This document shows, piece after piece, positions 10,352 to 62,673 of a stretch of 64,000 nt of DNA. Every line of letters starts with the position of its first letter. Within the stretch, counting starts at the first letter, position 1. Below the pieces are notes generated by a model. The model was not told where the DNA came from. It did not search any database and saw nothing but the letters and a program-made list of their open reading frames with translations. Position numbers and translations under genes: made by a program. This DNA is from Planctomycetota bacterium (GTDB taxonomy: Bacteria > Planctomycetota > UBA1135). The stretch covers positions 297 to 64,296 of the forward strand of contig JASFYO010000005.1 in assembly GCA_045047305.1 (NCBI GenBank), written 5' to 3'.

Positions 10352-10362
10352 ACAGTGAAACC

Positions 10363-13292: not shown

Positions 13293-13296
13293 ACCG

Positions 13297-14445: not shown

Positions 14446-14458
14446 CTTTCCCTTCCCG

Positions 14459-15214: not shown

Positions 15215-15236
15215 AGCGCAATGGGCTCATTGCTAA

Positions 15237-15262
15237 GGAATGGGGTGTTACCACCCCATTCC
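15237..15262 (+). promoter_or_regulatory. Intercistronic stem-loop between the exbB-like and exbD-like genes
   Basis: GGAATGGGGTG-TTAC-CACCCCATTCC is a perfect 11-bp stem with a 4-nt loop and no U-tract. It lies 23 nt after the stop and 34 nt before the next ATG. Confidence 0.45.
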
Positions 15263-15295
15263 GAACCCACTAGTCTGAACAAGTAAGCAAATAAC

Positions 15296-15919: not shown

Positions 15920-15933
15920 GCAAGGTAAAGAAC

Positions 15934-16449: not shown

Positions 16450-16477
16450 GTTTCAGAACTAGGTAAATCCGCACGGG

Positions 16478-18049: not shown

Positions 18050-18088
18050 CCATAGCCTCAGTCCCAGCTCGGATCCCAAGCTTTCCCC

Positions 18089-45200: not shown

Positions 45201-45398
45201 GTTGAATGTAAAGGTGATATCCTGGTTTGCCGCATGGGTGCTGGTGGAAAACGAGCTTCCATTGCAACCGAGCGAACAAACGGACATGCCGAATTCCGCT
45301 ACTGCTGCAGCGTCGTTAGAAGAGCTACCGCACGCCGCGAAAGTGGCGAGCAGGCAGGATGTGGCAAGAATTTTGCTTAGGGAAGGGAGTATCTTCAC
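42261..45398 (-). CDS. Giant surface lipoprotein, family A1: SbsA-Ig-like (Big_5-like) modules plus glycine-rich repeats
   Basis: The start is set to GTG 45398. MKILPSLSKILATSCLLATFAAC-GSS is a clean lipoprotein signal. DITFTFNDVVDPSTVNFSSISIV is a Big_5-like motif. The C-terminal half has runs such as GGGGGGYW, GGAGGGGAG, PGGGGGAGGGSVQLHAGSRLSVNG and GGGGGSGGAVLLQGG...GGAGGIGAAGNHGGAGGSGLVRVE. Confidence 0.8.
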   Translation of the reverse strand: MKILPSLSKILATSCLLATFAACGSSSNDAAAVAEFGMSVCSLGCNGSSFSTSTHAANQDITFTFNDVVDPSTVNFSSISIVDKATGVTPTGSFIVNGKVVVFQPSLIQSTSGTLFGFLTGSTYRIQILDDASSNAVASRAGRLNQTFITGDITIVAPIDLVPGNPSLITLTPDTTVTPTTRDFPIVMVFNDLMDSLPMANPDDGSSTQISVTIVDATTGTEIPMPGVFTAVLNRTTLLTTITFTPSVPYPGNHGGARSLRLSTSQQIADMGGNLLDNPGNTNLLLPTIGQVTGAFTEAFTDTAQEDENGSVAGLWSGVAGTIDSGLDPTTGLHKGGGSGVLGVYVATQGLSVLDTDGDPAFRSELLGEDVGVLGGVYPFSEVLIPGGARLEATGANPLRLFSQGSLQVDGVMDFSGQSALVHSGKVFMVSEYDNDDGVGVFNESPLGRMTAAQFDDAFALGGVGGSGDLGAGSGGTGGKAWYHLGVAFDNSLYYNALLTNWRTGVTGGGNPSPARFPGGLGAGAGENVDLYCGSNAGGVGGTASVGKPSTGAGALQHTDQDNGSGMGSWCWPPSANEVTDATFNNGVTITTHPTAFAGGSPTDFGNFSIHRSRGGGGGGYWTDGARGVHFDATSTDPLGLALLTPLIDANDNIFEFNGDGLGGDRLLWDVRLGAGASLPDADGGRYIIPLGSETLDPDAGFLLGGAGGGGAGMSEHGSIEDRFGAFANGDVGTYRNNPGGGGGAGGGSVQLHAGSRLSVNGTVSADGGEGASSTFMASIPFADTDAIDFGPPGDAGGGGGSGGAVLLQGGSLVQTAFDAISVNGGAGGIGAAGNHGGAGGSGLVRVETATGLETLSILEGFVTPNEAVELTPIGLPGQANIGTIAVAFPGTVGDITAGDGTVFGGNASGVRSRWYEANASVQNIVITGWQVEVEYFDGTTTTTLSFSDTALTDPDATPIWIALQGAWMAPGQAGAANPILVTTTPWAIPSVNGATDGLMELNASINRALRFMLVFDQDQIGTLIGTAAGSYFRVTDVNVDFLGD

Positions 45399-45480
45399 AA
45401 TGACCAAGTCGGGGCGACCTAGATGTCCTCGGGTTGGCACTCGAGGATTTCTGTCGGCAAAGTTTAGCAGACTAAACACC

Positions 45481-46449
45481 ATGCACACACAGACTTACAA
45501 CGAACAGAGAAAAGGCAGAATGCTGCCCACCCCTTTCCTGCACATGGCATGCCAAATGATGCCATTACTCCTTCTAGGGGCTATCGGGCTCTCAGCAACC
45601 AGCTGTTCACAGGGAAATGCCGGAAGTCCCTTAATTTCAGAGACTTCGCGTGCTTTAGCGAACAGTTTTGAGAGCTCCGAAGATGCGATTTCGGCCCTCC
45701 GAGTGCGAGCTCGCACGGCTGCCGAGCGACTCCACACGGATGCATTGGTCGAAGAATTGCCCGCTCTGCGCGAGGAATTGCAGCTTACGGTCATGGCTTT
45801 GGCAGCCTTAGACGACGCCGAGACCTTCCCGTGGAAGGATTGGATCGAAGAAAGCCGCTTCCTTATTCCCGAAATGACCGAGCAAGAGCTGCTTGCCGCC
45901 ACCCAAGTTTTGGGGCCAGAAGCCTCCCTCATCCTCTGTCGCAGCTGTGATTTCCGCGAAATGCCAGAGCGTCCGCGCTTGGTGGCACACCGCACTTTTT
46001 GGCGCCTAGATGTGAACGAAGCATTCGCGCGCGGCAACAAGCTTCTATTCCTCGACCACCCACGGGCGCGGGACCGCATCCGCCAGATGTATGTAGAAGA
46101 TGTTTTGCTCCAGGTGGAAGGAGAAGAAGCGCAGCAATGGGTAACCGAATTGCTCCTCGATATTGCCACCGAAGAATCGATGGAGCCACGTGCACGTTCT
46201 TTGGCGGTGCGCGCCTTACGCGAACGTCGCAACCAAGAAGCGCCTGCGATTTTGGAAAGCCTCTTCGACACCGAGTCCACCAATTTTCTGCTCCGCAAGG
46301 AAGCTCTCATGGCCATCCTGGATTTAGATAACGTACGCGGGCAGCGCATCTTGCTCGAAAAAATGCCCTCACGTTCGATTGACCCCGGCACCTGGGAATT
46401 CATGCGCTTGCTACGTGCTCAAGAAGGCCTTCCGGTTCCACCACAATAA
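45481..46449 (+). CDS. Hypothetical alpha-helical lipoprotein (possible HEAT-like repeats)
   Basis: Only the part downstream of the divergent giant gene is credible. Candidate starts are 45481, 45520 and 45544, the last giving MACQMMPLLLLGAIGLSATSC-SQ. The helical C-terminal repeats (RSLAVRALRERRNQEAPAILESL, LLRKEALMAILDLD) resemble HEAT/PBS-lyase units. Confidence 0.6.
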   Translation: MHTQTYNEQRKGRMLPTPFLHMACQMMPLLLLGAIGLSATSCSQGNAGSPLISETSRALANSFESSEDAISALRVRARTAAERLHTDALVEELPALREELQLTVMALAALDDAETFPWKDWIEESRFLIPEMTEQELLAATQVLGPEASLILCRSCDFREMPERPRLVAHRTFWRLDVNEAFARGNKLLFLDHPRARDRIRQMYVEDVLLQVEGEEAQQWVTELLLDIATEESMEPRARSLAVRALRERRNQEAPAILESLFDTESTNFLLRKEALMAILDLDNVRGQRILLEKMPSRSIDPGTWEFMRLLRAQEGLPVPPQ

Positions 46450-49810: not shown

Positions 49811-49867
49811 GAGAAAGAAAAAAGAAAAAAGAAAAGGCATCGAGTGATGAATCACTCGATGCCTTTA
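49811..49867 (-). terminator. Rho-independent terminator after the OmpA-like gene
   Basis: The minus strand reads AAAGGCATCGAGTGAT-TC-ATCACTCGATGCCTTT (16 complementary nt per arm) followed by TCTTTTTTCTTTTTTCTTTCTC. It begins 17 nt after the stop at 49884. Confidence 0.75.
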
Positions 49868-49883: not shown

Positions 49884-50573
49884 TTAAGGCAGAACTAGGA
49901 TTTCTACCCGACGGTTCTTTGCCTTACCTTCTTTGGTAGAGTTATCTTCTTTCGGATCCCATTCGCCGTGACCAGCAATGCGAACGTACTGCGACTCAAT
50001 CTCTTTCTCAAATACGAGATAATCTGCTACCGAAAGCGCACGGTTCACCGACAAAGCAAGATTGCTCTTCCAACCAGATTTCTTGGGTTGATCCGAATCT
50101 GTGTGGCCTTCCACCCAAAAAGTTTTTCCGGTGTAAGACTCCTTCAGCACGTCGGCGACGCGAGACATGGTTTCCTTACCCTTCTTGTTTAACTCGGCTT
50201 TGCCGGAGCCAAAAGTTAGGTTGGAATCAACCCCAAGAACAATGAAGCCTCCACGGGATTCTACTTCCACGCCAGTACCTGCGAGGCGTGCTTGCAAGTC
50301 GGCGACTTCGGAATCCTGCTGCTGGAATGCTGCCTCACGCGCAGCCAATCGGTCCTGGATTTCAGCGGCGCGTTGCTGCTCGAAACTCAGTTGATCGGAT
50401 AGCGCAGCGTTCTCAGCACGCACGCGCTGGGTCTCAAGGCGGAGATTGTCCGACTCGGTTTTGTATGCAGCGAGCTGCTGATCTTGGTCGTCAAGCATCT
50501 GGCGATGCATTTGGCTCTGACACGATGGAGCGGCCAGTGCGAGAAGTAGGATGAGAAGTGTGGATTTCTTCAT
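49884..50573 (-). CDS. OmpA/MotB-domain lipoprotein with an N-terminal coiled coil (Pal-like peptidoglycan binder)
   Basis: The lipoprotein signal is MKKSTLLILLLALAAPSC-QSQ. A heptad-rich Q/E/A/L segment follows. The OmpA_C motifs are FGSGKAEL, GHTDS, NLALSVNRALSVADYL and NRRVEILV. Confidence 0.85.
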   Translation of the reverse strand: MKKSTLLILLLALAAPSCQSQMHRQMLDDQDQQLAAYKTESDNLRLETQRVRAENAALSDQLSFEQQRAAEIQDRLAAREAAFQQQDSEVADLQARLAGTGVEVESRGGFIVLGVDSNLTFGSGKAELNKKGKETMSRVADVLKESYTGKTFWVEGHTDSDQPKKSGWKSNLALSVNRALSVADYLVFEKEIESQYVRIAGHGEWDPKEDNSTKEGKAKNRRVEILVLP

Positions 50574-50593: not shown

Positions 50594-51589
50594 CTAACCG
50601 TTAAGGAATTGGGGCCAGGTCTCGAGGAAGAACTGGTGGACGGATGCGGGAGCCATCAAAACGAGGACGGTCCCCAAAATCAGTGGCGGACCGAACGGAA
50701 TGGTCCGCCCGGCAAGCCAGCCAACATGCGCGAACGAATGTACATAGGTGTGGGTCTTGCCCTGCGTCCGACGTCGGTGGCGAACCACCAAAATCATGCG
50801 CACGACGTTGACCACGCCCAGCACTGCGCCCGCGAAGACGCCGACAGCGAGAGTCCAAACGGAGCCCTCGAGGCCGAGGAAGGCACCGACAGCGGCGATG
50901 TACTTGACGTCGCCAAAGCCCAGTGCTTCCTGCTTAAGAAGATAAGAAAACAGGCGACCAATTCCAAACAAGAACCCGAAAGAAATAAGGGAACTAAGGA
51001 ATCCTGAAATCAAAGCGAGTTGATTTAGCGGCAAATCCAGAGGAATTCCGAACCAATCGAGGCCCAATGGCATGGTGTCCAATCCAGGCCAAAAATGAAA
51101 TTCTGGGACCAGATAGGCCGCAGCTAATCCGAAGGGAATTCCGCCCAAGGTGATGCCATCGGGCAGGATGAAATGACGAAAATCGACAGCCATCGCAATC
51201 CACAGGCCTGTTAAGGCAACGAAGGATAGCCCAAGTGCCACTGGGCCACCGCCTAGAGCAGAATCTGCCAACCAACTGTGCCCAGCAAGGTAAAACAAAC
51301 CCGCTAAGCCGATCTCGTGGACCAGATAGCCTGGCCCAAAGCCAGATTTGCAGTCGCGGCAGCGGCCACGGAGAATCAAATACCCAAGGACCGGAATATT
51401 ATCATGCCAGCGGATGGTCGCGTTGCAGCAGGGGCAATGTGAGCGTGCAGGGCTCGCGATCGACATCCCCTCTTTAGGAATGCGAAAGATGGCCGCCGAG
51501 GCGAAGGAGCCAGCCATCGCGCCGCACACCACCAAAAAGGTGATGTAGAGGCCAGGACTCTCCACTTGCAGGACTTGCAACCAGTTCAT
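50594..51589 (-). CDS. pilD: Prepilin peptidase (A24 family, PilD/GspO-like) with an N-terminal zinc-binding methyltransferase-type domain
   Basis: CPCCNATIRWHDNIPVLGYLILRGRCRDC is the 4-Cys motif. The catalytic Asp contexts are FILPDGIT and GFGDVKY. The protein is polytopic. Confidence 0.9.
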   Translation of the reverse strand: MNWLQVLQVESPGLYITFLVVCGAMAGSFASAAIFRIPKEGMSIASPARSHCPCCNATIRWHDNIPVLGYLILRGRCRDCKSGFGPGYLVHEIGLAGLFYLAGHSWLADSALGGGPVALGLSFVALTGLWIAMAVDFRHFILPDGITLGGIPFGLAAAYLVPEFHFWPGLDTMPLGLDWFGIPLDLPLNQLALISGFLSSLISFGFLFGIGRLFSYLLKQEALGFGDVKYIAAVGAFLGLEGSVWTLAVGVFAGAVLGVVNVVRMILVVRHRRRTQGKTHTYVHSFAHVGWLAGRTIPFGPPLILGTVLVLMAPASVHQFFLETWPQFLNG

Positions 51590-51631: not shown

Positions 51632-52471
51632 CTAGTGATGTGTGCGTCGAACCATACGAATCACTCGGTCGGACTCGGGTAAAGGCCAGCCACCAAGCCC
51701 TTCTACACCAGCCGGAAGCTCCAATGCGCCTCCACCAACCCAGGCAGGAATGTTCACCTCAACCACGGCGCCGGAGAAGGTGTTTTCGATTAAACGGAGC
51801 GTTACGAAATCTGGCTCCATTTGGCCTTGCGCTTGCCAGCGTGCCTTTCCCCTCAAGGTCCGGGGATCAATACCACGTGAGAAGTGCAGCAGGACCGGTT
51901 GGTCGCGCAGGAAGACATGCGGTTCATGCTCTGAAGGGCCCAGTAGGCCCAGCTGTGAGGATTCCACGCCGCGGCCGGCAAGAGCGCCGGCTGAAGCCGC
52001 ATCGGCCGTGTGGAAGCGCAGGATGAGGTCTTTCGGCAAGAGAGATCCGTCCCTTGCAGCTAGGGCACGCAACCAAGGCAATCCATGCAAGCGAATTCCA
52101 TAACTTTGATTCGGGTGCAAACTGCCATCGCTAAGATCGGCGCGTAACGGTAAGCGGGGTTCTATGTGAATCCAGCGACCCACAACGGAGACTGACGCGG
52201 TGTCTACCACATGGCCCCCCTCATCCACCAGCTCAACCGAACTAGCACGCATCGGCTTCGCAAGTGGGAAATTGAACTCTACTTTCAAGACTTGATCCAA
52301 GGCAACAGGCTGCTGGTCATCACCCGTCCAAGAAACTACCTGTAGGCGTGTGGGTATTCCCTCCACCCCACAGCTAGCCAGGGAGCCTAATAGGAACATA
52401 ATCGCACTCAAGGTGCGTGTGCGCTGCCAGTTAGATTGCGGAAACAAGGATTGGCTCATAGATTGCAGCAT
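51632..52471 (-). CDS. Hypothetical lipoprotein with an SbsA-Ig-like (Big_5-like) module
   Basis: The signal is ...AIMFLLGSLASC-GVEG. LKVEFNFPLAKPMRASSVELVDEGG...WIHIEP matches the 'i.v.Fs.pl.p.s....v.l.d' Big_5 pattern also present in the giant proteins. The start codon is ambiguous. Confidence 0.6.
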   Translation of the reverse strand: MLQSMSQSLFPQSNWQRTRTLSAIMFLLGSLASCGVEGIPTRLQVVSWTGDDQQPVALDQVLKVEFNFPLAKPMRASSVELVDEGGHVVDTASVSVVGRWIHIEPRLPLRADLSDGSLHPNQSYGIRLHGLPWLRALAARDGSLLPKDLILRFHTADAASAGALAGRGVESSQLGLLGPSEHEPHVFLRDQPVLLHFSRGIDPRTLRGKARWQAQGQMEPDFVTLRLIENTFSGAVVEVNIPAWVGGGALELPAGVEGLGGWPLPESDRVIRMVRRTHH

Positions 52472-52477
52472 AGCGTG

Positions 52478-52521
52478 CCAAAAAGAAAACCCCTCGTCAT
52501 CGAAGGCTGACGAGGGGTTTT
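52478..52521 (-). terminator. Rho-independent terminator closing the three-gene giant-lipoprotein operon
   Basis: The minus strand reads AAAACCCCTCGTCA-GCCTTCGA-TGACGAGGGGTTTT (14-bp perfect stem) followed by CTTTTTGGC. It starts 15 nt after the stop at 52536. Confidence 0.75.
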
Positions 52522-52535
52522 GTAACTTCAGAGCT

Positions 52536-55500
52536 TTACCAGCCCCAAGGAATCTTCAGGTATTCCAAAGAAGGCTTCTCCTTGTCCACCGTTGGACCGG
52601 AATTCAAGGCATCGATGTCGAAGGTGATGCGATAGCGGACGAAGCGCTTGCCCTGGAGATCGGACATGCTGGTGACTCCATCGCCAGTCCATGGAGTGGC
52701 TGCTGCAATATCCGGCGTGTTCGAGCCAGGAGCCGTCTCCTCTGTGCCTTGGAACTGAATGCGTACGCTTGCAGAAGCCGGCAGACGATCCTTGGTTGCC
52801 GTGGTGGTCACGCGGAAGAACTTCGAGCGTACAGCCCAATTGGCCGAAGCCACTAAAGACATAGGCCCATCCGAAACACGAGTGGTCAAGACCAAGGTCT
52901 CCGGACTAGCAGTGTAAACAGCATCCATTATTTCAAAGGTGGATGGAGTCACCATGCTGGTGTCTGGAACCATGTCGTAGCCGACCATCAGGTTCGGGTT
53001 GCGCAACAAGTCTGCACCGAAGGACGATGATGGGTTGGCAATGGTCACGGTGTAGTTGGAGAAGCTAGCGGTTCCTGTTCCACCATCAACACCGACCACA
53101 GAGCCTGGAGTGACCAAGTTGGAACCACTAAGCACCAAGCCCGTTGCTTGATCAATACCTTCGAAACCGAGAGTGGTGTCAAGGTAGTCCGGGAAAGGAC
53201 CGGTTCCGTTTGCTGGGTTGCGTAGTTCTGCAAGACCAGTATCGACCCACACGCTTTGCACCTGAGATTCTGGAGAGAACATCGGGACCAAGGTGAATGG
53301 CACTGGAATGGCATAAATCCCAAGCACTTCATCCTGGCGATCAGAGATGGCTGGATTACTGGGATCCAAAGCCGTGATGTACTGCTTGAACGCCGCGTCT
53401 ACCGAAGGGTGGTAGGTGATGTCTTGCAATGGATTCGGCACGTGGATTTGGATCAAGCCACTAGCACCTGCTCCACCGCGGCCAATCATGTAAGTGCTGT
53501 TGCCATCGTTTTCGCCATCGCCACTGAATCCAGTGTCGTCATCAGTCTCATTGAAACCGTTAGTAGGAGAAACGAAACGACTACCAGCCCAGCCCCGACG
53601 TCCACCAATCGCTTGGATTAGGTGTGAGTTGGTGATGTTGGCAAAGAAGGTTGCAGGCACCGCTGGGTTACCCGCCGTTCCCACTGGAATCTGGCTGAGG
53701 TTTAATCCCGATGCCGAGTGCAGAATGAGGTGTCCACCAGAACCACCACCAGATCCCGATACTTGGGAGGTCGTTGCGAGATCACCGCCGTCTCTGGAGG
53801 ATTGTCCGCCCTGACCGGAGCCGCCATTCACTTTCAGAATCGCTGCCGGACCAAGAGTAATCGGACCAAGACATAACAGTTGCACCTGTCCACCACCACC
53901 ACCACCGGGTGCGCCACGGAAGTAGCGCGCGGTGTAACCCACACCCGCGAAGTTAGGGTCAGGGAACAACATGTTCAGGGTGTCTGGGTATAAATCCCCA
54001 TCCAAGTCAAAGCGGAACATGGTTTGAATATCACCACTTGCACCACCACCAGAGCCTGCGTACGGCGCACTCAGCTCCCCCGTGACCAGGGTTGGTGCAA
54101 CGCCAGCGGTGCCATCCCAGAAGTAGCGGTGGCCCCAAAAGTTATTGCTCGTTTGCCCATCAGTAAAAACCGAGCGGCCAGCAATGCCGCCATCGGGCCC
54201 AGTATTTGGGTTGCCGAATGGAAAGGCGATGGCGGCGCCGGTCTCAGAACGATCAAAGAGGATTTCCCAATCGACATCATTCAAGGTGTCTTGGGAACGG
54301 TCCTCAAAACCTTGCACGCCGTGCGGTCCAGTGATGGTTTGGCTATCCGGATTCCGCGTATGAGATCGACTGGAACCACGCAACCCATCTTCAGCACCTA
54401 AGAATGCCAAATCAGGATCAATCGTCGCGTTGTAAATCGTGTGCCGATCAGCGCGTAAGTCAGGGCCGGAGTTATCAAAACTGGAAGGATTCTCAAGCAA
54501 ACTCCAACGATCCCAGAAAATGGAATCGGTACGGCCTTCACTAAAGCCGCCACCGGCACCACCACCGGCAATGAGGTATTCGGAAGCTATTAGGGTTGGA
54601 CCTACGGCAGCAGCGCGGTCTTGTTGATAGCCACCCTCACCGCCAATGCCTCCACCGCCAACCACGCCAAAAGGCCCGTTGCCCGTTTCGCCACGTGGGG
54701 TGTAATCATTCAGCACAAGAGATGCAGAGCCCCCCTTGCCGCCACCGCAGGCTCCAAGTGCGCCCGGGACAGCCAAAAACCAACTGTTAATGGCTCCATC
54801 TGGGGCCGTAGCATTAAAGCCACTGGCATCTAAGGTGCCAAGCAGGATTGCCTCACCGGAAACGTAAACCACCAATGGGTTATCGCCAATCGCGCGCAAG
54901 GTGGCTCCGGCCTCAATGGTGAAATCGTGAACATTCATCACACCATTCGTCACGGTAAAGACTTTGCCATTACCATCGGTAACTTGAGTCGTGGATGAAG
55001 TATCAATCTGAAGCAGACCTTGCCCAGTGGTAATCACAAAGTTACGATCCACGCCAACGGGAGTGCCGGGGAACGGGAAGTCTGCAGCAATCACGCCAGG
55101 CGTGATGGATGCTGGAGGCTGCGGCAAATCGGCCTCCAAGTCCAAACGGTTCGGGTTTCCAAAGCCATCCGTATATTCATCAAAAGTTACATCTTGCTCA
55201 TCAATCGCTGGGCCGTTCGCATAAAATTCCGCGATGGTCGGCACTGCAATCGGACTGGTCACCACCGTGGTGGTGTTGGTGTTACCGCCTAGATCCTCGA
55301 AATTGGAAGTCAGGACCACACGAATATCGCGGCCCGGAATCAAAACACCACTAACCTGGAAATGGATTAAAGCACCATCGCCACAGTTGCTCACCACTTG
55401 CATGGCACCCGGGATCACGTTTCCACTGCTTGGGAAGATTCCGCTAGCATTCGAAAACTGCACGTAAATCCTTGCCGTAGAAAAATTAATCGGCTCCGGA

Positions 55501-56129
55501 TTCACCGATTGGTTAAAACTCAAGACAATGGTGGAATCATTTTGAGAAACCAGACCAATGGAGTTTGGGACGGTGACATTATCCAACAACGGAGGCCCCA
55601 CAGTGGTGTCGGCAAACAATGTTTCGCCAGCTGTTGGGGTACGGAAGATACGAGTTAAACCAATTGCTAACTGATGCCCTGAGATGTCGCGAAGGACGGC
55701 TGCGCCTCCAGCACCCTCTGTGGGAAGGATTAGCTCATAACCAAAGTTGCCGGGAACAAAGCCACCGTTGCTGTTGTCCACGTTATCCGGACAAGCAGGA
55801 TTGAACTGAATGCCGAAGTTCCTGTTTCCCTCAGCATCGGTGATCAACTCGAAGGATCCGGTAACTGGATTGCCTGTGTTACTTAAATCTGTCGGGCGCA
55901 AAATCACCGAAGCAAAATTAACCGAATTCGCGTCAATTTCGTTATTGAAAAAGAGCTGAATTGGGCGGTTAAGCAACCAACTATCCCCATTGCTAACGTT
56001 GGAAGTTAAAACTTCAAAACGGCCAATGGATGACACCGATTTTTTACAACCGACAACGAAAAGGGGAAGCAATGCAACGCCCATGATGAAGGCGCTGCGC
56101 AGCAGGGATGTTTTGATGTTAGGCATCAT
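52536..56129 (-). CDS. Giant surface lipoprotein, family A2 (1197 aa): Big_5-like modules plus glycine-rich repeats
   Basis: The lipoprotein signal is MMPNIKTSLLRSAFIMGVALLPLFVVGC-KKS. PIQLFFNNEIDANSVNFASVIL and IVLSFNQSVNPEPINFSTARI are Big_5-like. Gly-rich blocks include GACGGGKGGS, VVGGGGIGGEGG, GAPGGGGGGQVQLLCLG and SGSGGGSGGHLILHS. The architecture is collinear with 42261..45398. The start overlaps the upstream stop as ATGA. Confidence 0.8.
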   Translation of the reverse strand: MMPNIKTSLLRSAFIMGVALLPLFVVGCKKSVSSIGRFEVLTSNVSNGDSWLLNRPIQLFFNNEIDANSVNFASVILRPTDLSNTGNPVTGSFELITDAEGNRNFGIQFNPACPDNVDNSNGGFVPGNFGYELILPTEGAGGAAVLRDISGHQLAIGLTRIFRTPTAGETLFADTTVGPPLLDNVTVPNSIGLVSQNDSTIVLSFNQSVNPEPINFSTARIYVQFSNASGIFPSSGNVIPGAMQVVSNCGDGALIHFQVSGVLIPGRDIRVVLTSNFEDLGGNTNTTTVVTSPIAVPTIAEFYANGPAIDEQDVTFDEYTDGFGNPNRLDLEADLPQPPASITPGVIAADFPFPGTPVGVDRNFVITTGQGLLQIDTSSTTQVTDGNGKVFTVTNGVMNVHDFTIEAGATLRAIGDNPLVVYVSGEAILLGTLDASGFNATAPDGAINSWFLAVPGALGACGGGKGGSASLVLNDYTPRGETGNGPFGVVGGGGIGGEGGYQQDRAAAVGPTLIASEYLIAGGGAGGGFSEGRTDSIFWDRWSLLENPSSFDNSGPDLRADRHTIYNATIDPDLAFLGAEDGLRGSSRSHTRNPDSQTITGPHGVQGFEDRSQDTLNDVDWEILFDRSETGAAIAFPFGNPNTGPDGGIAGRSVFTDGQTSNNFWGHRYFWDGTAGVAPTLVTGELSAPYAGSGGGASGDIQTMFRFDLDGDLYPDTLNMLFPDPNFAGVGYTARYFRGAPGGGGGGQVQLLCLGPITLGPAAILKVNGGSGQGGQSSRDGGDLATTSQVSGSGGGSGGHLILHSASGLNLSQIPVGTAGNPAVPATFFANITNSHLIQAIGGRRGWAGSRFVSPTNGFNETDDDTGFSGDGENDGNSTYMIGRGGAGASGLIQIHVPNPLQDITYHPSVDAAFKQYITALDPSNPAISDRQDEVLGIYAIPVPFTLVPMFSPESQVQSVWVDTGLAELRNPANGTGPFPDYLDTTLGFEGIDQATGLVLSGSNLVTPGSVVGVDGGTGTASFSNYTVTIANPSSSFGADLLRNPNLMVGYDMVPDTSMVTPSTFEIMDAVYTASPETLVLTTRVSDGPMSLVASANWAVRSKFFRVTTTATKDRLPASASVRIQFQGTEETAPGSNTPDIAAATPWTGDGVTSMSDLQGKRFVRYRITFDIDALNSGPTVDKEKPSLEYLKIPWGW

Positions 56130-59100
56130 TGGGTGGTGTAAGCGAAGCCAAAGGCGTCAAGTTCAGCGAGCAGGTCTTGCTCAATGTTCGACACGAAAGT
56201 GAACCGAAGTTGGAAGAAACGGCGGCCATCGGCAATGAGGTCAGCTGGGTCAGAATACCAGTCCGAAGGCAATGACATTGTTGCACAAGTACCTTGGTAT
56301 TCTCCATAGGAGTCGAAGCTGGTGCTTGCGTCGTTCAACGGCGACGGGCTGTCGGTTGCAATGCAGGTGGCATCATTGATGGTGATGGTGGAGCGGAACT
56401 GCACCTCAACGGAAGTGCCTGGATTAGCTTGTGCCGCAGTAGGTTCGATGGTCAGGGCAGACATGGCATCGAGGTTGCCACCAAAGTCAAACCAGTGGGT
56501 GTAAACCTTACTCACCTTAGTAACGAAATCGACCTGTCCCCAGTAGAGCTCTGGGCCAAAGCCCTTAGTGCCGACACCAGTCACGGTGTTATAGCCGCCG
56601 TTTGGAGCGGTACCTTCAGGCGGAAGGTCTGGGCGCACCAAGTTCCATACCGAGTTGCCGTCGCGACCGCCGGAGGAGAACACGCGGAAAGCCGGGATGT
56701 TGGAAGAACCAACCATGATTTGAACCTGGAATCCGTTGAAACCAAATTCCTGGCCGCGCGGATAACAGCGGAAGCGCATCAGCAAAGGCAACGCAATGCT
56801 TGGGAACTCCCCTGCAAGCCAAACTGGAACACCACCGATGACGGACGGAGGAACCCCATAACCAGCATCATTGGTCGGAGTACCGCCAGAAGGATTACCG
56901 CCGACTAAGGCACCACCATCCGGGATTGGGAAGTGAGTGTCACGCCAAGTGTAAGTGGTCGCAAAGTCTGGCCATGGGTACATGGACACTCCGCCTGAGG
57001 TCTGGAATCGGTTCACGCTTGATATTTCATAATTGGTATCAAACACAATGACCTCGTCTAGATCTGCATAAGCTACAGGATCTTGGCCAAAGCCATAGAT
57101 ATTCGAATCGAAGTTATTTCCAGTCAAACGCTTCAATCCAGAGTTCTTGTGCTCTGGATAACCAGAGCCTGCATTGATGAAATCATCTGGGAAACGCACC
57201 GAGTGGGCCAAAGCAAGCGAGTAACGATCAAAAGTATCGTCGAAAACCACGCCTTCAAAGGGTGACCAATTCAGACCTTCCACATCGAGATTGAACTCAC
57301 TCACGCTAGACAGGCCGAAACCAAGCTGATGATATGCGTAACAAGTCATCAATACGGCTCCCGCTGGAGTTAGTGGAGTCATCAGGCCTTGAGTGAACTT
57401 CAGACGCTGACCCACGAACTGGTTGGTTTGGTCCGCCTGGCGTGAAAAACGAACAATGCCGCGTCCGCGAAGCACACCATCACCCACAATCGGGCCAAGT
57501 TGGCCAGCGTATTCCGGAGTTTGATCCCCATCCTCATCGATACCGTTGCCGCGCAGTGCAAAGTACTTGTCAACGGGAACAGCGGTTCCGCCTAAAGTCC
57601 ATTTCAATCCGGACAGTTGGAATTGCGAAGAGTGTCCAGCAACAAAACTGGAGAAGTCGACGACATTTCCAGCAAGGTCGAGGATGCCAGTATTGCCATT
57701 GCGTAGCGCAAGAGACAGTTGCAGGCTAGTGCTTTCGCCAAAAGCATCGGTAATACCGGCTAAGGGTGCGAGGGTAAAGGATTGAGCATCACCGGAGGCC
57801 TGGATTGGGCCAAACATAATGCGGCCTGGGCCACCACCACTACCAAATCCTGGCAAGCGATCGAGGAAGTTGGGAACTGTTTCACCACCAACCAAATCCC
57901 ATTCTCTGTCGTTTCCGTCGACGCCGGCACTGAGGTTAGCCGAGGAAAGCACCATGGAATCCAGCGAGCGTACTGTAGTGACGTTGATTGGCTCACTGAA
58001 ACGGACCGTAATCGTTGAGAATGGGTCCACGCCGTTTGCCGGAAAGTTAATCGTTGGAGCGGGCGTTATGGTTAAGAAACACAACTGCAAAGCAGAATCG
58101 GCCACCGTGTAGCGGGTCGTTAGGTTTCCGGAGCGTGGGTTGAAGCCTCCGGGCAAAGTCCCTGCCAAAAGAGCACCCTGCACCTCAAGGGCAGCGTTGT
58201 TGGAAGTGTCGATGACGCTAGTAACTTGTAGTAATGCACCATTGACCTCAATCACGTCCCCTACCTTTGGACTCAAAGAACGACAACCCAAGACATCTAA
58301 GGCGTAAATAATGTTACGTTGGTTACCGATTTCAATCACCGAGGCAATGGTGATTTCTTGAGTCACAATCAGGGACGGCTTGGAAGTGTCGGTCAAAAAC
58401 CCGTTAAAAGCATCCAAATGGTTTCCAGTACGCACTGCGCGCACGGCAACAGGATCAAGCCCCGCAAACTCATGCGGTTCTATAATTGAATCTCCAGCTG
58501 CATTCCGGTTTACGTCGAAAGTTTGCGTGTTCGCTTTGTTGCTCAGCAGAAGCGTTTGGTTGATAAAAGGATTTAGCTTAGTTGGGATCCGCAACTTGAT
58601 GTTCGGAGTTTGCTGATTCTCCGATTCTGGAAATCCAATTCCGTTCTCTGGAATGCCCAACTGTTGCGCATCGATTTTGGAGATAGTTGGATCTAAAATA
58701 ACGATACCAACGGGCTCTCCATCTTGCCCTACTCCTTCTTTCACGACATAGCGAACTTCAAGGGAGGAAAGGCTATCTTGGGAGGTTCCGACCAAAACCT
58801 GGATGGTTTGGCGATCCACCGTATTCGGATTCAGGAACTCAGAAAACACCAAACGAATCGCGCCGTTACGTGCAAGCTTGGTAAATGGGCCCGGTGAATC
58901 AAAACTCTTGGCCTGAAGCGAAGTCAATCCGACACGGGCGTCCGCTAAAGCCTCATCAAACGCCACCGTGCCGCTGGTTTCAAGGATGGTCAAGACCTCA
59001 ACCTGAGTGATCGGGTTTTGACTCAACACATAACGAATGCCGTCGCTCTGCAAGCTCTCTCGAATCACGACATCGGTTTCCACCAAATCGCCTGCAAGGT

Positions 59101-59290
59101 CAAAAAGATTGATGAGGCGCCCCCACTGCATGTCCTCAAGAACGAGAGAAGCTTTTCCAGATCCAGCTCCAGTGCCGATTCCGGCACCGATTCCATCACC
59201 AGTAGCACCACACCCGACTAAGGAGAGAGCCGGTAAGGCAACAACGGTTGCAACGACGAAGCGTGCAAAAGAGTTTTTGAATTGAATCAT
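56126..59290 (-). CDS. Giant surface lipoprotein, family B1 (1054 aa)
   Basis: The lipoprotein signal is MIQFKNSFARFVVATVVALPALSLVGC-GATG. The Big_5-like motifs are AIRLVFSEFLNPNTVDRQTIQV and ITVRFSEPINVTTVRSLDSMVL. It aligns with the next gene along its whole length. The start overlaps the upstream stop as ATGA. Confidence 0.8.
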   Translation of the reverse strand: MIQFKNSFARFVVATVVALPALSLVGCGATGDGIGAGIGTGAGSGKASLVLEDMQWGRLINLFDLAGDLVETDVVIRESLQSDGIRYVLSQNPITQVEVLTILETSGTVAFDEALADARVGLTSLQAKSFDSPGPFTKLARNGAIRLVFSEFLNPNTVDRQTIQVLVGTSQDSLSSLEVRYVVKEGVGQDGEPVGIVILDPTISKIDAQQLGIPENGIGFPESENQQTPNIKLRIPTKLNPFINQTLLLSNKANTQTFDVNRNAAGDSIIEPHEFAGLDPVAVRAVRTGNHLDAFNGFLTDTSKPSLIVTQEITIASVIEIGNQRNIIYALDVLGCRSLSPKVGDVIEVNGALLQVTSVIDTSNNAALEVQGALLAGTLPGGFNPRSGNLTTRYTVADSALQLCFLTITPAPTINFPANGVDPFSTITVRFSEPINVTTVRSLDSMVLSSANLSAGVDGNDREWDLVGGETVPNFLDRLPGFGSGGGPGRIMFGPIQASGDAQSFTLAPLAGITDAFGESTSLQLSLALRNGNTGILDLAGNVVDFSSFVAGHSSQFQLSGLKWTLGGTAVPVDKYFALRGNGIDEDGDQTPEYAGQLGPIVGDGVLRGRGIVRFSRQADQTNQFVGQRLKFTQGLMTPLTPAGAVLMTCYAYHQLGFGLSSVSEFNLDVEGLNWSPFEGVVFDDTFDRYSLALAHSVRFPDDFINAGSGYPEHKNSGLKRLTGNNFDSNIYGFGQDPVAYADLDEVIVFDTNYEISSVNRFQTSGGVSMYPWPDFATTYTWRDTHFPIPDGGALVGGNPSGGTPTNDAGYGVPPSVIGGVPVWLAGEFPSIALPLLMRFRCYPRGQEFGFNGFQVQIMVGSSNIPAFRVFSSGGRDGNSVWNLVRPDLPPEGTAPNGGYNTVTGVGTKGFGPELYWGQVDFVTKVSKVYTHWFDFGGNLDAMSALTIEPTAAQANPGTSVEVQFRSTITINDATCIATDSPSPLNDASTSFDSYGEYQGTCATMSLPSDWYSDPADLIADGRRFFQLRFTFVSNIEQDLLAELDAFGFAYTTQ

Positions 59291-62200
59291 GGCTGTTTGT
59301 TATTCCAGACAATACCCAAACTATCTAGTTCAGGGCGCAGACCTAGGTCTGCATTTGATTTAAAGGTCACGCGTACCTGTAGGAAGCGGAATGCCCGCCC
59401 CTCCAGATCGCTCATATTGGTAGTCCAATCACTTGGAGTGCTTACCGTTCCCAAAGCACCTGGAAAAAAATCACCGTGGTCATCAAAGGGCGTATCAGCA
59501 TTGGTCAGTGGGGATGGATTCTGGCCTGGGTCCACCACGTGGGTCACCGATTCTGCTCCACGGAATTCCACCGTAATGGAAGTTCCCACGGGTTGATTCT
59601 CATTTGCAGGCTCAAGAATCACGTCGGTCACTTGGCCAAGAAGAAGGTTCGATCCCATATCCAGCCAGTGCGTGTAAATACGGGAAGTATCTACTACAAA
59701 ATCTGCCTGGGTCCAATAGATGTGGTCATCCCCCACGAAAGTGGTTGGGTTACCCGTTCCAGGCACAAAACCACCAATTGGGATAGTTCCACCTAAAGCC
59801 GAATTATCCGGCTGCACTTGGTGCCAGTTGCTGGAACCATCCTGACCACCTGAAGACCAAATGCGGAAGTTCACCATAGGGTTGCGTAGCGGCAACATTT
59901 GGGTGACCGAGAAGGAATTCAGGCCGAGACGGTTGTTTTGCGGGTAAACGCGGAAGCGTGCGAGCAAAGGCAAGGATACCGAAGGCACAGCTTCTGGACC
60001 CCATCCGAAAATGGTGCCATTGTCGGCAGCATACTGCTGGTTTGGTGCACCAAAGGAATTCTGGGCTCCACCGAGGTAGGTTTGCGAGATGGTGGTGTCG
60101 CGCCAAACATAGTTCGCGGTGAACTCTGGCCAAGGCATGTAAGGCGTTCCATTGTTGGAGAAGCGCTCGATGCTGTTCGCTACGTAGCTACTGCGGAAGA
60201 CTTCCACTTCATCGATCCCAGATGATCCGTCGGCGGTAAAGCCGAGGATGTTGTCATCGAATGCGCTAATCAGCAATCCGGACTCACGCCAGATTGGCTG
60301 TTGGGTTAATGGATTCAAAAGTTCATCGGGGAGGAACTTGGAAGTGGAAAGCGAAAGCGAAACGTCTTCGAAAGTTTCATCGAAAACAACACCAGCATTC
60401 GGAGACCAGTTAAAGCCTTCCACCGTCATGTTGTATTCCGTAGCGTCGCCGTATGCGAAACCAAATTCTTGTGGACGATAAGCACTCATGACCACGGCGC
60501 CAGCTGGGTTGAGTGGCTCGGTAACCGGAACCCCAAGCAGGCGATTTGACATGGCAGGACTGGAAGAGTCCGCAGCGCGGGAGAAGCGTGCTGGAAAGCG
60601 GCCAGACAGACTGTGGCCAAGAACGCTGGAGTTGCCGGCCCACTCGGACTGGCCATCGCCATTTTCATCGAGGGAAGAACCGTTGAACATGAAGTAGCTT
60701 GCACCGTCTGCCAAGGCAGTGTGCTGCACCGTGATGGCAATGGATTGCGCTCCTGGCTCTCCAGGTTGTCCGTTGCCTGCAACAAAACCTTCCACATCCA
60801 GTGGGTTTCCAGACAAATCGAGGATGCCTTCCAAACCGCCACGCAAAGCGACGACATAGGCTTCACCGTTGACTGCGGTTTGAGGATCAAACCAACCATA
60901 AGAAGGGGTCAAGGTGTAGCGGCGGTTGCCGTCGGTTGCCTCGACTGGGCCAAACAAAATACGTCCACCAAACTCCGATGCCGCATCAGCGCCGGTGATG
61001 ACAGGACGATAATCATAGCCGCGTTGGCGATCAATAAAGTCGCCGGTGCTTTCTGCTGCATTGACCTGACGATACCAAGCCGTTTCGATTTCAAACTCCG
61101 TGTTAATACTACCCACGGGAAGAACGTCTGGAGATGCAATCACGAAGGTGCTCATCGAGCGCATCGTGGTGGCGCTAATAGACTCATCGAAACGCACGGA
61201 AACGGAAGCATTGTCCGCGATGAGAATCAAACCACCGGGGATACTCGAAGTCAGGATTGGCGGTTGAAAGTCCAAGTAGCACACTTGAACCAAAGCATCT
61301 TGCGGGGTGTAAGTCGTGGTGTAACGAGTAGGCAGTGCCGTTGCGCCGACCACGATAGATGCATCTGTAGCCTCAAGAGCAGCGCGCACAGAATAGTTAT
61401 TTGGGTCCGCGCTGTTTAGTACATCGGTGACCAAAAGCAGGCCATTGCCAATCTCAAAGACATCGCCGACTTTCGGCGCCATTGGCTTACACACGTCCAA
61501 ATTTACGCTATATAGGAATTCAACCACGCTGCCGGAAATCGAAGTCACGCTGTTCACGGTTGCATCTTGCACCCCGAGCAAACTTGGCGCCGTGTTATCG
61601 AGGAGGAATCCGTTGAAGTCATCCAGGTTGTTGCCGGTACGTGCTGCACGCACCAAAACATCAGAAACTCCAGTGGATTCAAAAGGCTCCGTAGTCCGGT
61701 CTTGAACCGAAGGAGTGTGTTTGCCGTCGAGGCTGCGCAGCACCTTGGGCTGACCGATGAGCGGATCGGGCTGGGTTGGAATTCGAATCGCCAAGTTGGC
61801 GCTTACCGAATCTGCCGACGGTGGAAAGCCCACCGAGTTCTGCGGAATCGCCTCATTGGCGGCCTCGGCTGCAGACACCGTGGTATCGAAGTAAACATAA
61901 CCTTTGTCCAGGGCGCTGTCGTTCTTCACGATGTAACGTCCAGTGAAGGACAGCAGAGGCGGATTACCCGTAAACATCTGAATCGTGGTGAAGTCCACCG
62001 AAGATGGGTCAATCTGCTCCGAGAATTGCAAGCGAACCGTTGCGTTACGCGCAATCTCTGTGAACGGCGGAGCAGCATCCGCGGCCTTATCCACCACCCC
62101 TTGCAGGTTGGATTTTGCTGCGTTTAAAAGTCCGGTGAAGGTCGCAGAACCAGCATCACGCAGGATGGTCAGAGTCTCCTTTTGGCTGACTGGGTTGTTG

Positions 62201-62448
62201 CTGACTTCATAGTTCACGCCATCGGATTCGATGAGGTGGTTGACCAGGACGTCGGCCTCAATTAGAACGCCATTGGAGTCACGCACATCGACTAATCGAC
62301 CCCAGGTCAAGTTCTCAAGGAAAAGGCCAAGTGAGCTTTGCGTATCACCGCCAAGGCCGCCTGCGGAGCCTGAGGCAGAGATGCAGCTACCACCGACCAC
62401 GGTGGCGGCCGCTAAGCCAAATGCTGAGATTCGAGTGAGGAGATGCAT
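59287..62448 (-). CDS. Giant surface lipoprotein, family B2 (about 1053 aa from ATG 62448)
   Basis: The start is set to ATG 62448. MHLLTRISAFGLAAATVVGGSC-ISAS is a signal peptide with a lipobox-like end. TVRLQFSEQIDPSSVDFTTIQM and VSVRFDESISATTMRSMSTFVI are Big_5-like. It is a paralogue of 56126..59290. Confidence 0.8.
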   Translation of the reverse strand: MHLLTRISAFGLAAATVVGGSCISASGSAGGLGGDTQSSLGLFLENLTWGRLVDVRDSNGVLIEADVLVNHLIESDGVNYEVSNNPVSQKETLTILRDAGSATFTGLLNAAKSNLQGVVDKAADAAPPFTEIARNATVRLQFSEQIDPSSVDFTTIQMFTGNPPLLSFTGRYIVKNDSALDKGYVYFDTTVSAAEAANEAIPQNSVGFPPSADSVSANLAIRIPTQPDPLIGQPKVLRSLDGKHTPSVQDRTTEPFESTGVSDVLVRAARTGNNLDDFNGFLLDNTAPSLLGVQDATVNSVTSISGSVVEFLYSVNLDVCKPMAPKVGDVFEIGNGLLLVTDVLNSADPNNYSVRAALEATDASIVVGATALPTRYTTTYTPQDALVQVCYLDFQPPILTSSIPGGLILIADNASVSVRFDESISATTMRSMSTFVIASPDVLPVGSINTEFEIETAWYRQVNAAESTGDFIDRQRGYDYRPVITGADAASEFGGRILFGPVEATDGNRRYTLTPSYGWFDPQTAVNGEAYVVALRGGLEGILDLSGNPLDVEGFVAGNGQPGEPGAQSIAITVQHTALADGASYFMFNGSSLDENGDGQSEWAGNSSVLGHSLSGRFPARFSRAADSSSPAMSNRLLGVPVTEPLNPAGAVVMSAYRPQEFGFAYGDATEYNMTVEGFNWSPNAGVVFDETFEDVSLSLSTSKFLPDELLNPLTQQPIWRESGLLISAFDDNILGFTADGSSGIDEVEVFRSSYVANSIERFSNNGTPYMPWPEFTANYVWRDTTISQTYLGGAQNSFGAPNQQYAADNGTIFGWGPEAVPSVSLPLLARFRVYPQNNRLGLNSFSVTQMLPLRNPMVNFRIWSSGGQDGSSNWHQVQPDNSALGGTIPIGGFVPGTGNPTTFVGDDHIYWTQADFVVDTSRIYTHWLDMGSNLLLGQVTDVILEPANENQPVGTSITVEFRGAESVTHVVDPGQNPSPLTNADTPFDDHGDFFPGALGTVSTPSDWTTNMSDLEGRAFRFLQVRVTFKSNADLGLRPELDSLGIVWNNKQP

Positions 62449-62673
62449 CCTTTTGGGTTGATTCACGGATTCTATTTTTGTTAGCGCTAGGTGGGACAAC
62501 ACCTAGACCGACTATCCTAAAGCGGCGAGTCAGACTTAGCTGTTCCTTATTGGCAAATCCCGTACCAACGCCGGGAAGTGCCTGTATGGGGCTATTTTAG
62601 GGCAGGAACGCCCGCAGGGTGCGGTTTCGCACCAAGGCTTCCTGCTGCTAAGTTTAGCTCCTGAAAGCGGAGA

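What the first reader, a model, noticed from the sequence alone, without database searches (positions are those of the whole stretch)
52478..62502. Translationally coupled operon of three lipoproteins of about 1050-1200 aa from two novel-looking families (B2-B1-A2)
Seen in the sequence: three consecutive minus-strand genes (62448 to 59287, 59290 to 56126, 56129 to 52536) are joined by ATGA overlaps. A strong terminator at 52478-52521 closes them.

Each gene starts with a signal peptide ending in Cys. Each contains repeated 'xIxVxFSExIdPxTV'-type SbsA-Ig (Big_5)-like modules, which I know from S-layer and surface proteins. B1 and B2 align over their whole length. A2 adds a glycine-rich region.

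I see no catalytic motif, no beta-barrel autotransporter end, and no LPXTG, PEP-CTERM or T9SS-type tail. Roughly 10 kb of coding capacity goes to unknown surface proteins.

Inference: they may form a surface layer, adhesin or fibre complex, and they are obvious candidate cargo or partners for the secretin system at 7.6-20.8 kb.
Basis: partly seen in the sequence, partly recalled or inferred. Interest (0 to 1): 0.75.

Follow-up and report, generated by a model that had tools for sequence, protein, structure and literature searches.

The report
Conserved giant envelope lipoprotein operon
Three back-to-back genes encode very large, lipid-anchored, mostly beta-sheet proteins from two undescribed families that are kept as a unit throughout an uncultured marine planctomycete lineage; they most likely build part of the cell's outer coat, but nothing ties them specifically to the nearby secretin genes.

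Summary
Three minus-strand genes (B2 62448-59287, B1 59290-56126, A2 56129-52536) are joined by ATGA overlaps. A 14-bp hairpin plus T-tract closes them. Each protein starts with a lipoprotein-type signal peptide.

B1 and B2 are 37% identical end to end. Only Big_5 Ig-like domains are recognisable; Pfam, NCBIfam, PHROGs, PDB sequences and Foldseek explain nothing else. The 'two novel families' claim is supported.

New findings:
- The A and B families share an N-terminal Big_5 domain and a roughly 100-aa C-terminal domain (hhalign 93.6%).
- AlphaFold models are confident and probably compact (pTM 0.70-0.72), which argues against fibres.
- The order PyrB-B(-B)-A-(small lipoprotein)-PilD-OmpA-EF-G persists in Planctomycetota MAGs, including UBA1135, down to about 28% identity.
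- The proteins evolve about as slowly as PilD and OmpA.

The secretin link is not supported specifically. The secretin block lies 32 kb away and is not close to the operon in the related loci. It co-occurs only through clade-wide macro-synteny.

Best reading, at moderate confidence: a heteromeric, lipid-anchored envelope coat, functionally analogous to Deinococcus HPI but not homologous to it. The function remains unproven.

The parts
59287..62448 (-). B2: 1053-aa lipoprotein of the B family. An alternative GTG start at 62502 would give 1071 aa.
   Evidence: ORF. NCBI calls the same 1053-aa product. It is 37% identical to B1 over the full length. Big_5 scores 23.8 bits. The C-terminal domain is hit by both CTD HMMs.
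56126..59290 (-). B1: 1054-aa lipoprotein of the B family. Layout: signal peptide and lipobox 1-27; Gly-rich tether about 28-48; small beta/alpha domain about 49-125; Big_5-like domain about 126-300; beta domain with a conserved Cys336/Cys404 pair about 301-410; second Big_5-like domain about 411-565; unmatched C-terminal body about 566-1054.
   Evidence: (AF2 pLDDT 79.5, pTM 0.72).
52536..56129 (-). A2: 1197-aa lipoprotein of the A family. Layout: lipobox Cys28; two Ig-like domains about 37-300; a stretch of short regular strands that I read as a beta-helix, starting about 360, with long Gly-rich loops about 440-900; C-terminal beta domain about 900-1197 ending in the CTD shared with B.
   Evidence: (pLDDT 78.5, pTM 0.70).
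52476..52521 (-). Intrinsic terminator or attenuator closing B2-B1-A2, 14 nt before the start codon of the next gene.
   Evidence: Conserved in position in 14 of 17 orthologous loci.
51632..52471 (-). lp279: a 279-aa lipoprotein (lipobox LASC). It is a shortened member of a third family that is 634-667 aa long in distant relatives and also starts with a Big_5-like domain.
50594..51589 (-). Prepilin peptidase (PilD/A24). It lies 43 nt after lp279 on the same strand and is a conserved downstream neighbour.
49884..50573 (-). OmpA-family lipoprotein. Its N-terminal half looks like a coiled coil on my reading of the sequence, consistent with a weak Taxilin match. It lies 20 nt after PilD and is followed by a strong terminator at 49866-49833.
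42261..45488 (-). A1w: a distant A-family paralogue. It is a lipoprotein with 16.5% Gly and carries the same C-terminal domain.
   Evidence: CTD HMM E 5.7e-11. Syntenic in L012, L013, L032 and L051.

Best explanation
B2, B1 and A2 are subunits of a heteromeric, lipid-anchored cell-envelope coat of an uncultured planctomycete of the UBA1135/OM190 ('Saltatorellota') group. The paralogues A1w and lp279 probably belong to the same set.

Shown:
- Each protein is made with a lipoprotein signal peptide.
- In most B members, and in most A-family members, a Gly/Ser-rich tether follows the lipidated Cys. The window's own A2 has only a short linker.
- Next comes a Big_5 Ig-like domain. A large family-specific beta-rich body follows, then a roughly 100-aa C-terminal domain shared by A and B.
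- Stop/start overlaps couple the three genes.
- A conserved terminator separates them from the downstream lp279-PilD-OmpA genes.

Inferred:
- The proteins are made in fixed proportion and at a higher level than the downstream genes.
- The lipid anchors them in the outer membrane.
- The Ig-like domain acts as a stalk.
- The compact bodies and the shared C-terminal domain make lateral contacts that build a protein layer on the cell surface.

Functionally this is like the lipobox-anchored, Ig-domain S-layer protein HPI of Deinococcus, but there is no homology.
For: - Lipobox Cys is conserved across both families. The Gly-rich tether appears in the family consensus.
- Big_5/SbsA-Ig domains are present. 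Foldseek matches the A2 N-terminus to the tandem bacterial Ig domains of LdtMt2 and to the S-layer protein SbsC.
- The conserved pair Cys336/Cys404 in B fits an oxidising extracytoplasmic location.
- Composition is S-layer-like: pI 4.3-4.5, about 1% Lys, few Cys.
- ATGA coupling and a positionally conserved terminator after A.
- The shared C-terminal domain has hhalign probability 93.6% and E 2e-7. The A-family CTD HMM also hits A1w and B2.
- The models are confident and, judging by pTM, compact.
- The B-A pair is universal and syntenic in the lineage: 242 genome hits, and the order is kept down to about 28% identity.
- A stand-alone B paralogue carries an extra Calx-beta domain, which from general knowledge is typical of extracellular proteins.
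- HPI is a precedent for a roughly 1000-aa lipobox-anchored Ig-domain S-layer protein on a diderm (PMC10120038).
Against: - There is no direct evidence of surface exposure, abundance or lattice formation.
- Most bacterial lipoproteins face the periplasm.
- Only about a quarter of each protein is recognisably Ig-like. HPI did not appear among the sequence or Foldseek matches.
- The proteins evolve as slowly as PilD and OmpA, with no hypervariable region. That is unusual for exposed surface proteins.
- Codon usage gives no sign of very high expression.
- No S-layer is mentioned for cultured Saltatorellota in the one paper read; the term 'S-layer' occurs 0 times.
Confidence: 0.4

Rival explanations
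1. Periplasmic envelope scaffold. The lipoproteins face the periplasm, anchored in the inner leaflet of the outer membrane or in the inner membrane. They form a conserved structural or protective complex between membrane and peptidoglycan, working alongside the neighbouring OmpA-like tether.
For: - Slow, uniform evolution comparable to PilD and OmpA, and constant length.
- Presence throughout the lineage, embedded in a housekeeping region.
- The best structural matches for the Ig domains are periplasmic proteins: LdtMt2 and the MG0 domain of E. coli alpha-2-macroglobulin.
- The adjacent gene encodes an OmpA-family lipoprotein.
- By default, diderm lipoproteins are periplasmic (general knowledge).
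Against: - The long Gly-rich tethers, the very acidic low-Lys composition and the Calx-beta-bearing paralogue fit exported or surface proteins better.
- There is no alpha-2-macroglobulin thioester motif and no A2M family hit.
- Nothing identifies a periplasmic partner.
Confidence: 0.25
2. Secretin-dependent surface cargo. Like the lipoprotein pullulanase PulA in Klebsiella, the proteins are lipidated and then moved across the outer membrane through one of the two secretins at 7.7-20.8 kb. The shared C-terminal domain would serve as a recognition element, and PilD would mature the pseudopilins of the machine.
For: - The prepilin peptidase gene is a conserved close neighbour downstream of the lipoprotein genes.
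- Two secretin genes lie in the same 64-kb window.
- Secretin homologues sit on the same contigs as B homologues in at least six assemblies, judged by matching contig lengths. In QQUA01000013.1 this was confirmed directly, with the same ~30 kb spacing.
- A C-terminal domain is common to A2, A1w, B1 and B2.
- The PulA precedent comes from general knowledge.
Against: - The secretin block is 32 kb away, with unrelated housekeeping genes in between.
- It is not close to the operon in any related locus.
- The whole 60-kb region is syntenic, so co-occurrence is not specific.
- The secretin block has no GspE/F, and the window has no ORF with a prepilin motif.
- Within the DNA examined, the C-terminal domain occurs only in the A and B families, not on diverse cargo as a sorting tag would.
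Confidence: 0.12
3. Surface-anchored enzymes or binding proteins for polymers. The central region of A, read as a beta-helix, and the roughly 480-aa C-terminal body of B would be unrecognised glycan- or protein-degrading or binding modules, displayed on the cell for feeding.
For: - From general knowledge, beta-helices are common in polysaccharide lyases and hydrolases, and planctomycetes are known polymer degraders.
- B has many invariant polar residues in its C-terminal body, for example D585, E586, D702, R783, N852, R869 and D921.
- One weak BFVD match is labelled 'oligo alginate lyase', but it probably reflects Ig-like domains.
Against: - No catalytic family or motif was detected by Pfam, NCBIfam, PDB sequence search or Foldseek, even with family consensus sequences at E up to 10.
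- The loci contain no adjacent transporters, regulators or CAZyme genes.
- Single-operon, lineage-wide conservation next to housekeeping genes is unlike substrate-specific utilisation loci.
Confidence: 0.1

Closest known systems
Deinococcus radiodurans HPI S-layer protein (PMC10120038)
   Same: It is a roughly 1000-aa protein of a diderm. It has a lipobox and an invariant N-terminal Cys, is rich in Ig-like domains, has conserved disulfides, and homologues are conserved within its lineage at 25-88% identity.
   Different: - No sequence or detectable fold match to HPI.
- HPI is one protein built of seven consecutive Ig-like domains.
- Here three to five different proteins each have only two Big_5 domains, plus large unmatched bodies, a Gly-rich central region read as a beta-helix (A family), and a private C-terminal domain.
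SbsA/SbsC-type S-layer proteins of Geobacillus (source of the SbsA_Ig/Big_5 domain)
   Same: They share the Big_5-type Ig-like modules. SbsC (4uj6, 4uic, 2ra1) is among the Foldseek matches.
   Different: - SbsC is from a monoderm and, from general knowledge, is anchored through a cell-wall polymer-binding N-terminus, not by a lipid.
- The matches cover only the Ig-like parts, at TM-scores of about 0.1-0.2.
PulA (pullulanase), the lipoprotein cargo of the Klebsiella type II secretion system
   Same: It is a large lipoprotein whose gene lies next to secretion genes that include a prepilin peptidase. It is exported through a secretin (general knowledge).
   Different: - PulA is a recognisable glycoside hydrolase next to a complete T2SS operon.
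- Here no enzyme family is detectable.
- Only PilD is adjacent.
- The secretins are 32 kb away, in a block with TPR and ExbB/ExbD genes and no GspE/F/G.
Bacterial alpha-2-macroglobulins (E. coli ECAM/YfhM)
   Same: They are very large, all-beta, multidomain lipoproteins of the envelope. The MG0 domain of 4zjg is a Foldseek match to an A2 Ig-like domain (rmsd 4.0 over 121 columns).
   Different: There is no thioester motif, no A2M Pfam hit, and no full-length structural match (TM below 0.1).

Membership tests
Big_5 / SbsA-Ig bacterial Ig-like domain (PF13205), tested at domain level only | Match to the Pfam model at or above the gathering score (23.6 bits) | tested here: met
   The window proteins are borderline at 22.0 (A2), 23.5 (B1) and 23.8 (B2) bits. 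All 30 B members and 20 of 28 A members match, with best E-values of 8.6e-8 and 5.6e-7. Family consensus sequences score 33.2 and 37.0 bits with two stretches each.
Big_5 / SbsA-Ig bacterial Ig-like domain (PF13205), tested at domain level only | Ig-like beta-sandwich fold | tested here: met
   The N-terminal tandem domains of the A2 model match the bacterial Ig domains of LdtMt2 (E about 1e-6, probability 1.00) and SbsC.
HPI-type lipid-anchored S-layer protein | Lipoprotein signal peptide with an invariant Cys as the first mature residue | tested here: met
HPI-type lipid-anchored S-layer protein | Sequence or fold homology to HPI; body made of consecutive Ig-like domains | tested here: not met
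   No PDB sequence match at E<=1. HPI is absent from the top 50 Foldseek matches of both models. Only two Big_5 domains per protein.
HPI-type lipid-anchored S-layer protein | Forms a two-dimensional lattice outside the outer membrane | not testable with these tools
   Needs cryo-EM or cryo-ET, or biochemistry.
Type II secretion lipoprotein cargo (PulA-like) | Genetic association with a T2SS (secretin, GspE/F, pseudopilins, prepilin peptidase) | tested here: not met
   Only PilD is adjacent. The secretins are 32 kb away, in a TPR/ExbBD block without GspE/F. The window has no prepilin-motif ORF. No gene of the block lies within 10 kb of the operon in the related loci.
Type II secretion lipoprotein cargo (PulA-like) | Secretin-dependent export | not testable with these tools
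   Needs genetics.
Autotransporter, LPXTG, PEP-CTERM or T9SS-sorted surface proteins | C-terminal beta-barrel, LPXTG motif, PEP-CTERM tail or Por_Secre_tail domain | tested here: not met
   No such Pfam or NCBIfam hits. No LPXTG or PEP tail. The C-terminus is instead a private roughly 100-aa domain.
Alpha-2-macroglobulin lipoproteins | A2M/MG domain hits and a CxEQ thioester motif | tested here: not met

The most novel reading that the evidence does not exclude
The A, B and lp279-type lipoproteins would be the building blocks of a previously undescribed multi-subunit, lipid-anchored surface lattice specific to the OM190/UBA1135 ('Saltatorellota') lineage. Their shared C-terminal domain would be a new assembly or export module. 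Such a flexible protein coat, rather than a rigid wall, could contribute to the fragile outer membrane and the shape-shifting reported for cultured members of the lineage.
Probability: 0.15. Interest if true: 0.7.

Novelty: new variant of a known kind. Interest (0 to 1): 0.4.

Why it matters
The lineage (OM190/UBA1135, proposed 'Saltatorellota') is widespread in the ocean. Its few cultured members change shape, fuse and have a fragile outer membrane (bioRxiv 10.1101/817700).

A roughly 10-kb operon of unknown envelope lipoproteins is retained in every adequately covered genome examined, from marine to groundwater and wastewater members. That makes it a strong candidate for a core envelope component of these cells.

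Defining it would add two or three protein families, and one new C-terminal domain, to the catalogue of bacterial surface architecture. It would also give a concrete target for cryo-tomography and proteomics in this group. If it is only a set of ordinary periplasmic lipoproteins, the interest is modest.

Tried and rejected
- Sequence family searches. Pfam and NCBIfam on full proteins, on all alignment members and on consensus fragments up to E=10 gave only Big_5, plus a weak DUF7305 hit (15 bits against a cut-off of 27) that I do not rely on. PHROGs gave nothing.
- PDB sequence and profile searches. Nothing for the B profile or for A2, and only noise for the C-terminal domain profile.
- Foldseek. 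Both full-length models against the PDB, and A2 against BFVD, matched only through Ig-like domains. One 'glycine-rich domain' phage protein matched at probability 0.54 and TM 0.09, and I rejected it as unreliable.
- tblastn of A2 against phage genomes found no match.
- Codon-usage similarity to EF-G as an expression proxy showed no signal.
- A search for prepilin-like ORFs in the window found none.
- Literature searches found nothing on these proteins. Terms tried: Planctomycetota with secretin, ExbB and lipoprotein; UBA1135; Saltatorellus; OM190 with metaproteomics; DUF7305.
- dN/dS was not attempted. The nearest orthologues are only about 82% identical at protein level, so synonymous sites are probably saturated.
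- Readings considered and rejected: autotransporter, T9SS, LPXTG and PEP-CTERM sorting; alpha-2-macroglobulin; PilY1-like pilus tip adhesin (no minor pilins nearby, and the signal peptide is of lipoprotein rather than type I kind).
Full report
**1. Observation**

The three minus-strand ORFs exist as described:
- B2: 59287-62448, 1053 aa from the ATG. A GTG at 62502 would add 18 residues.
- B1: 56126-59290, 1054 aa.
- A2: 52536-56129, 1197 aa.

NCBI annotates the same three products in the source MAG as hypothetical proteins QM477_02285, QM477_02280 and QM477_02275. Both junctions are 4-nt ATGA stop/start overlaps.

A 14-pair hairpin (52521-52486) with a T-tract follows A2. A hairpin plus T-tract sits at the same place in 14 of 17 orthologous loci, although the sequences differ. 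B2-B1-A2 is therefore a conserved transcription unit. The next start codon (lp279) is only 14 nt beyond the T-tract.

The N-termini are lipoprotein-like: LVGC in B1, VVGC in A2, and the less canonical GGSC in B2. The Cys is invariant or nearly invariant across both families.

B1 and B2 are 37% identical over their whole length. A2 is 13.5% Gly, with local blocks of 30-38%.

**2. What can be recognised**

Only Big_5 (SbsA-Ig) domains are recognisable.
- The window proteins score at the Pfam threshold.
- All 30 sampled B members and 20 of 28 A members hit Big_5.
- Consensus sequences score 33-37 bits with two modules per protein.

Nothing else matched:
- NCBIfam and PHROGs.
- PDB sequences, with single sequences and with profiles.
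- tblastn against phage genomes.

Every database relative is named 'hypothetical protein' or 'Ig-like domain-containing protein' from Planctomycetota MAGs. The 'two novel-looking families' claim stands.

**3. Structure**

AlphaFold2 with family alignments gave confident models:
- B1: pLDDT 79.5, pTM 0.72.
- A2: pLDDT 78.5, pTM 0.70.

Both are almost entirely beta. A pTM of about 0.7 for proteins over 1000 residues suggests that the domains pack in a defined, compact way. That argues against a fibre or a beads-on-a-string adhesin. I could not inspect the coordinates, so compactness is an inference from pTM alone.

Foldseek against the PDB found only generic Ig-like similarity for B1 (SbsC, antibodies; TM below 0.1). 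For A2, the N-terminal tandem Ig-like domains clearly matched the bacterial Ig domains of LdtMt2, SbsC and an E. coli alpha-2-macroglobulin MG domain. BFVD gave the same picture.

Two large regions have no structural match:
- The A2 centre, about 360-900. It shows short regular strands at very high confidence, which I read as a beta-helix, interrupted by long Gly-rich loops of low confidence.
- The roughly 480-aa C-terminal body of B.

**4. A shared C-terminal domain**

A profile-profile comparison of the last 125-148 residues of the two families gives 93.6% probability and E 2e-7. An HMM of the A-family C-terminus also finds the paralogue A1w (42261-45488, E 5.7e-11) and the B2 C-terminus (E 1.3e-5). 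The common motif, read from the alignment, is V-x-[IV]-[EQ]-F-[RQ]-G ... W-[TS]-x-D ... L ... [RK]-[FY]-x-[RQ]-x-R-x-T-F ... P-x-L-[DE]-x-[FL].

So A and B share both ends, the N-terminal Big_5 domain and this C-terminal domain, and differ in the middle. In the roughly 1.7 Mb of related loci, the domain occurs only in A and B family proteins.

The third lipoprotein, lp279, is a shortened form of a 634-667-aa protein in distant relatives. That protein also begins with a lipobox and a Big_5-like domain.

**5. Distribution and context**

A scan of one genome per GTDB species found 242 confirmed relatives of B. Of the best 80, which fall into 74 distinct loci, all are MAGs. Nearly all are labelled Planctomycetota or Planctomycetales, including UBA1135, UBA8587 and UBA7888. 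A few are labelled only 'bacterium', and one is labelled Myxococcota, probably a mislabelled bin.

UBA1135, UBA8108 and OM190 were proposed as the phylum 'Saltatorellota'. Its cultured members change shape and have a fragile outer membrane (bioRxiv 10.1101/817700).

The order PyrB-B(-B)-A-(lp279 type)-PilD-OmpA-EF-G-TatD is kept from 88% down to about 28% identity. Distant members have B-A, B-B-A or B-A-A. Several genomes carry extra stand-alone B paralogues, one with an added Calx-beta domain.

B1 evolves about as slowly as PilD and the OmpA-like protein:

| Comparison tier | B1 identity | PilD / OmpA identity |
|---|---|---|
| Close | 82% | 86-88% |
| Middle | 46% | 50-59% |
| Distant | 29% | 34-37% |

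All B1 domains are similarly conserved, and length is nearly constant at 1028-1055 aa in most members. This is the behaviour of a core component, not of a variable adhesin.

**6. The secretin idea**

The window holds two secretins fused to TPR-containing N-termini, two TPR proteins, ExbB, ExbD and a PLP decarboxylase at 7.7-20.8 kb. That block is 32 kb from the operon.

None of the 78 related loci then held shows any gene of the block within 10 kb of the operon. At a looser cut-off, one locus (L060) has a secretin fragment at its start.

Secretin homologues do lie on the same contigs as B homologues in at least six assemblies, judged by matching contig lengths. In QQUA01000013.1 the spacing is again about 30 kb. 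But the genes in between (HAD hydrolase, oligopeptide ABC transporter, ComEC) are in the same order too. The whole region is simply syntenic in this lineage.

That also limits what can be read into the PilD and OmpA adjacency. Still, lp279, PilD and OmpA are separated by only 43 and 20 nt and end in their own strong terminator. They probably form an operon.

The secretin block has no GspE/F, and no prepilin-motif ORF occurs in the window. The cargo hypothesis is therefore not excluded, but it has no specific support.

**7. Most likely mechanism**

Shown:
- Lipoprotein signal peptides, Ig-like N-terminal domains and a shared C-terminal domain.
- Gly/Ser-rich tethers after the Cys in B1, B2 and most family members. 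The window's A2 has only a short linker.
- Translational coupling and a conserved terminator.
- Lineage-wide conservation.
- Acidic, low-Lys, low-Cys composition, with one conserved Cys pair in B.

Inferred: the proteins are made in fixed ratio, lipidated and placed in the outer membrane. There they form a heteromeric protein coat. The Ig-like domain would act as a stalk, and the compact bodies and C-terminal domains would make lateral contacts.

The nearest functional precedent is Deinococcus HPI, a roughly 1000-aa lipobox-anchored Ig-domain S-layer protein (PMC10120038). There is no homology to it.

I put this reading at about 0.4. The rivals are:
- Periplasmic scaffold, 0.25.
- Secretin-dependent cargo, 0.12. 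This could coexist with the coat model.
- Unrecognised surface enzymes or binders, 0.1.

**8. Verdict**

The feature is real and conserved, and the families are undescribed. The function is not established.

I rate it as a new variant of a known kind (large lipid-anchored, Ig-domain envelope proteins), with interest 0.4.

Noticed in passing
window 7745-20755: An unusual block: secretin with a TPR N-terminus, a 949-aa TPR protein, a 356-aa protein with no Pfam hit here (its L080 homologue has faint TPR hits), ExbB, ExbD, a PLP-dependent decarboxylase, and a second secretin. The same order occurs in relatives, with two or three ExbD copies (L080, L081). There is no GspE/F, and no prepilin-motif ORF anywhere in the window. 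A secretin paired with an ExbBD-type motor is not a canonical T2SS or T4P layout.
   Followed up: partly
window 62674-63990: Aspartate carbamoyltransferase (PyrB) fused at its C-terminus to the zinc domain of the regulatory chain (PyrI_C). The same fusion is seen in near and distant relatives (L001, L060).
   Followed up: partly
window 42261-45488: A fourth giant lipoprotein, 'A1w' (about 1040-1075 aa, 16.5% Gly). It is a distant A-family paralogue carrying the same C-terminal domain, and it is syntenic after TatD in L012, L013, L032 and L051.
   Followed up: partly
window 51632-52471; L075 16564-18468; L072 16423-18426: The 279-aa lipoprotein downstream of A2 is a truncated version of a 634-667-aa lipoprotein in distant relatives. 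On my reading of the L075 sequence, that longer protein has a Big_5-like start followed by a beta-helix-like middle.
   Followed up: partly
L012 (JBLINB010000002.1): This MAG is labelled Myxococcota but carries the complete PyrB-B-B-A-lp-PilD-OmpA block at 58% identity to the window. The bin is probably mislabelled or contaminated.
   Followed up: no
L053 8819-12925; L079 10001-12970: Stand-alone B-family paralogues lie elsewhere in genomes that also have the operon, or in other large genomes. The L053 copy has an extra N-terminal Calx-beta domain. The L079 copy sits near PA14/cytochrome, FG-GAP/ASPIC and TPR genes.
   Followed up: partly
window 49833-49866: A second strong intrinsic terminator (15-pair stem) lies right after the OmpA-like gene. 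It defines lp279-PilD-OmpA as a probable separate unit.
   Followed up: no
window 45495-46403 and 6247-7335 (minus strand): Long ORFs with Ser/Arg-rich, low-complexity translations. One overlaps the opposite-strand ORF 45115-46449 and the other precedes the secretin gene. They look like spurious reading frames rather than genes.
   Followed up: no
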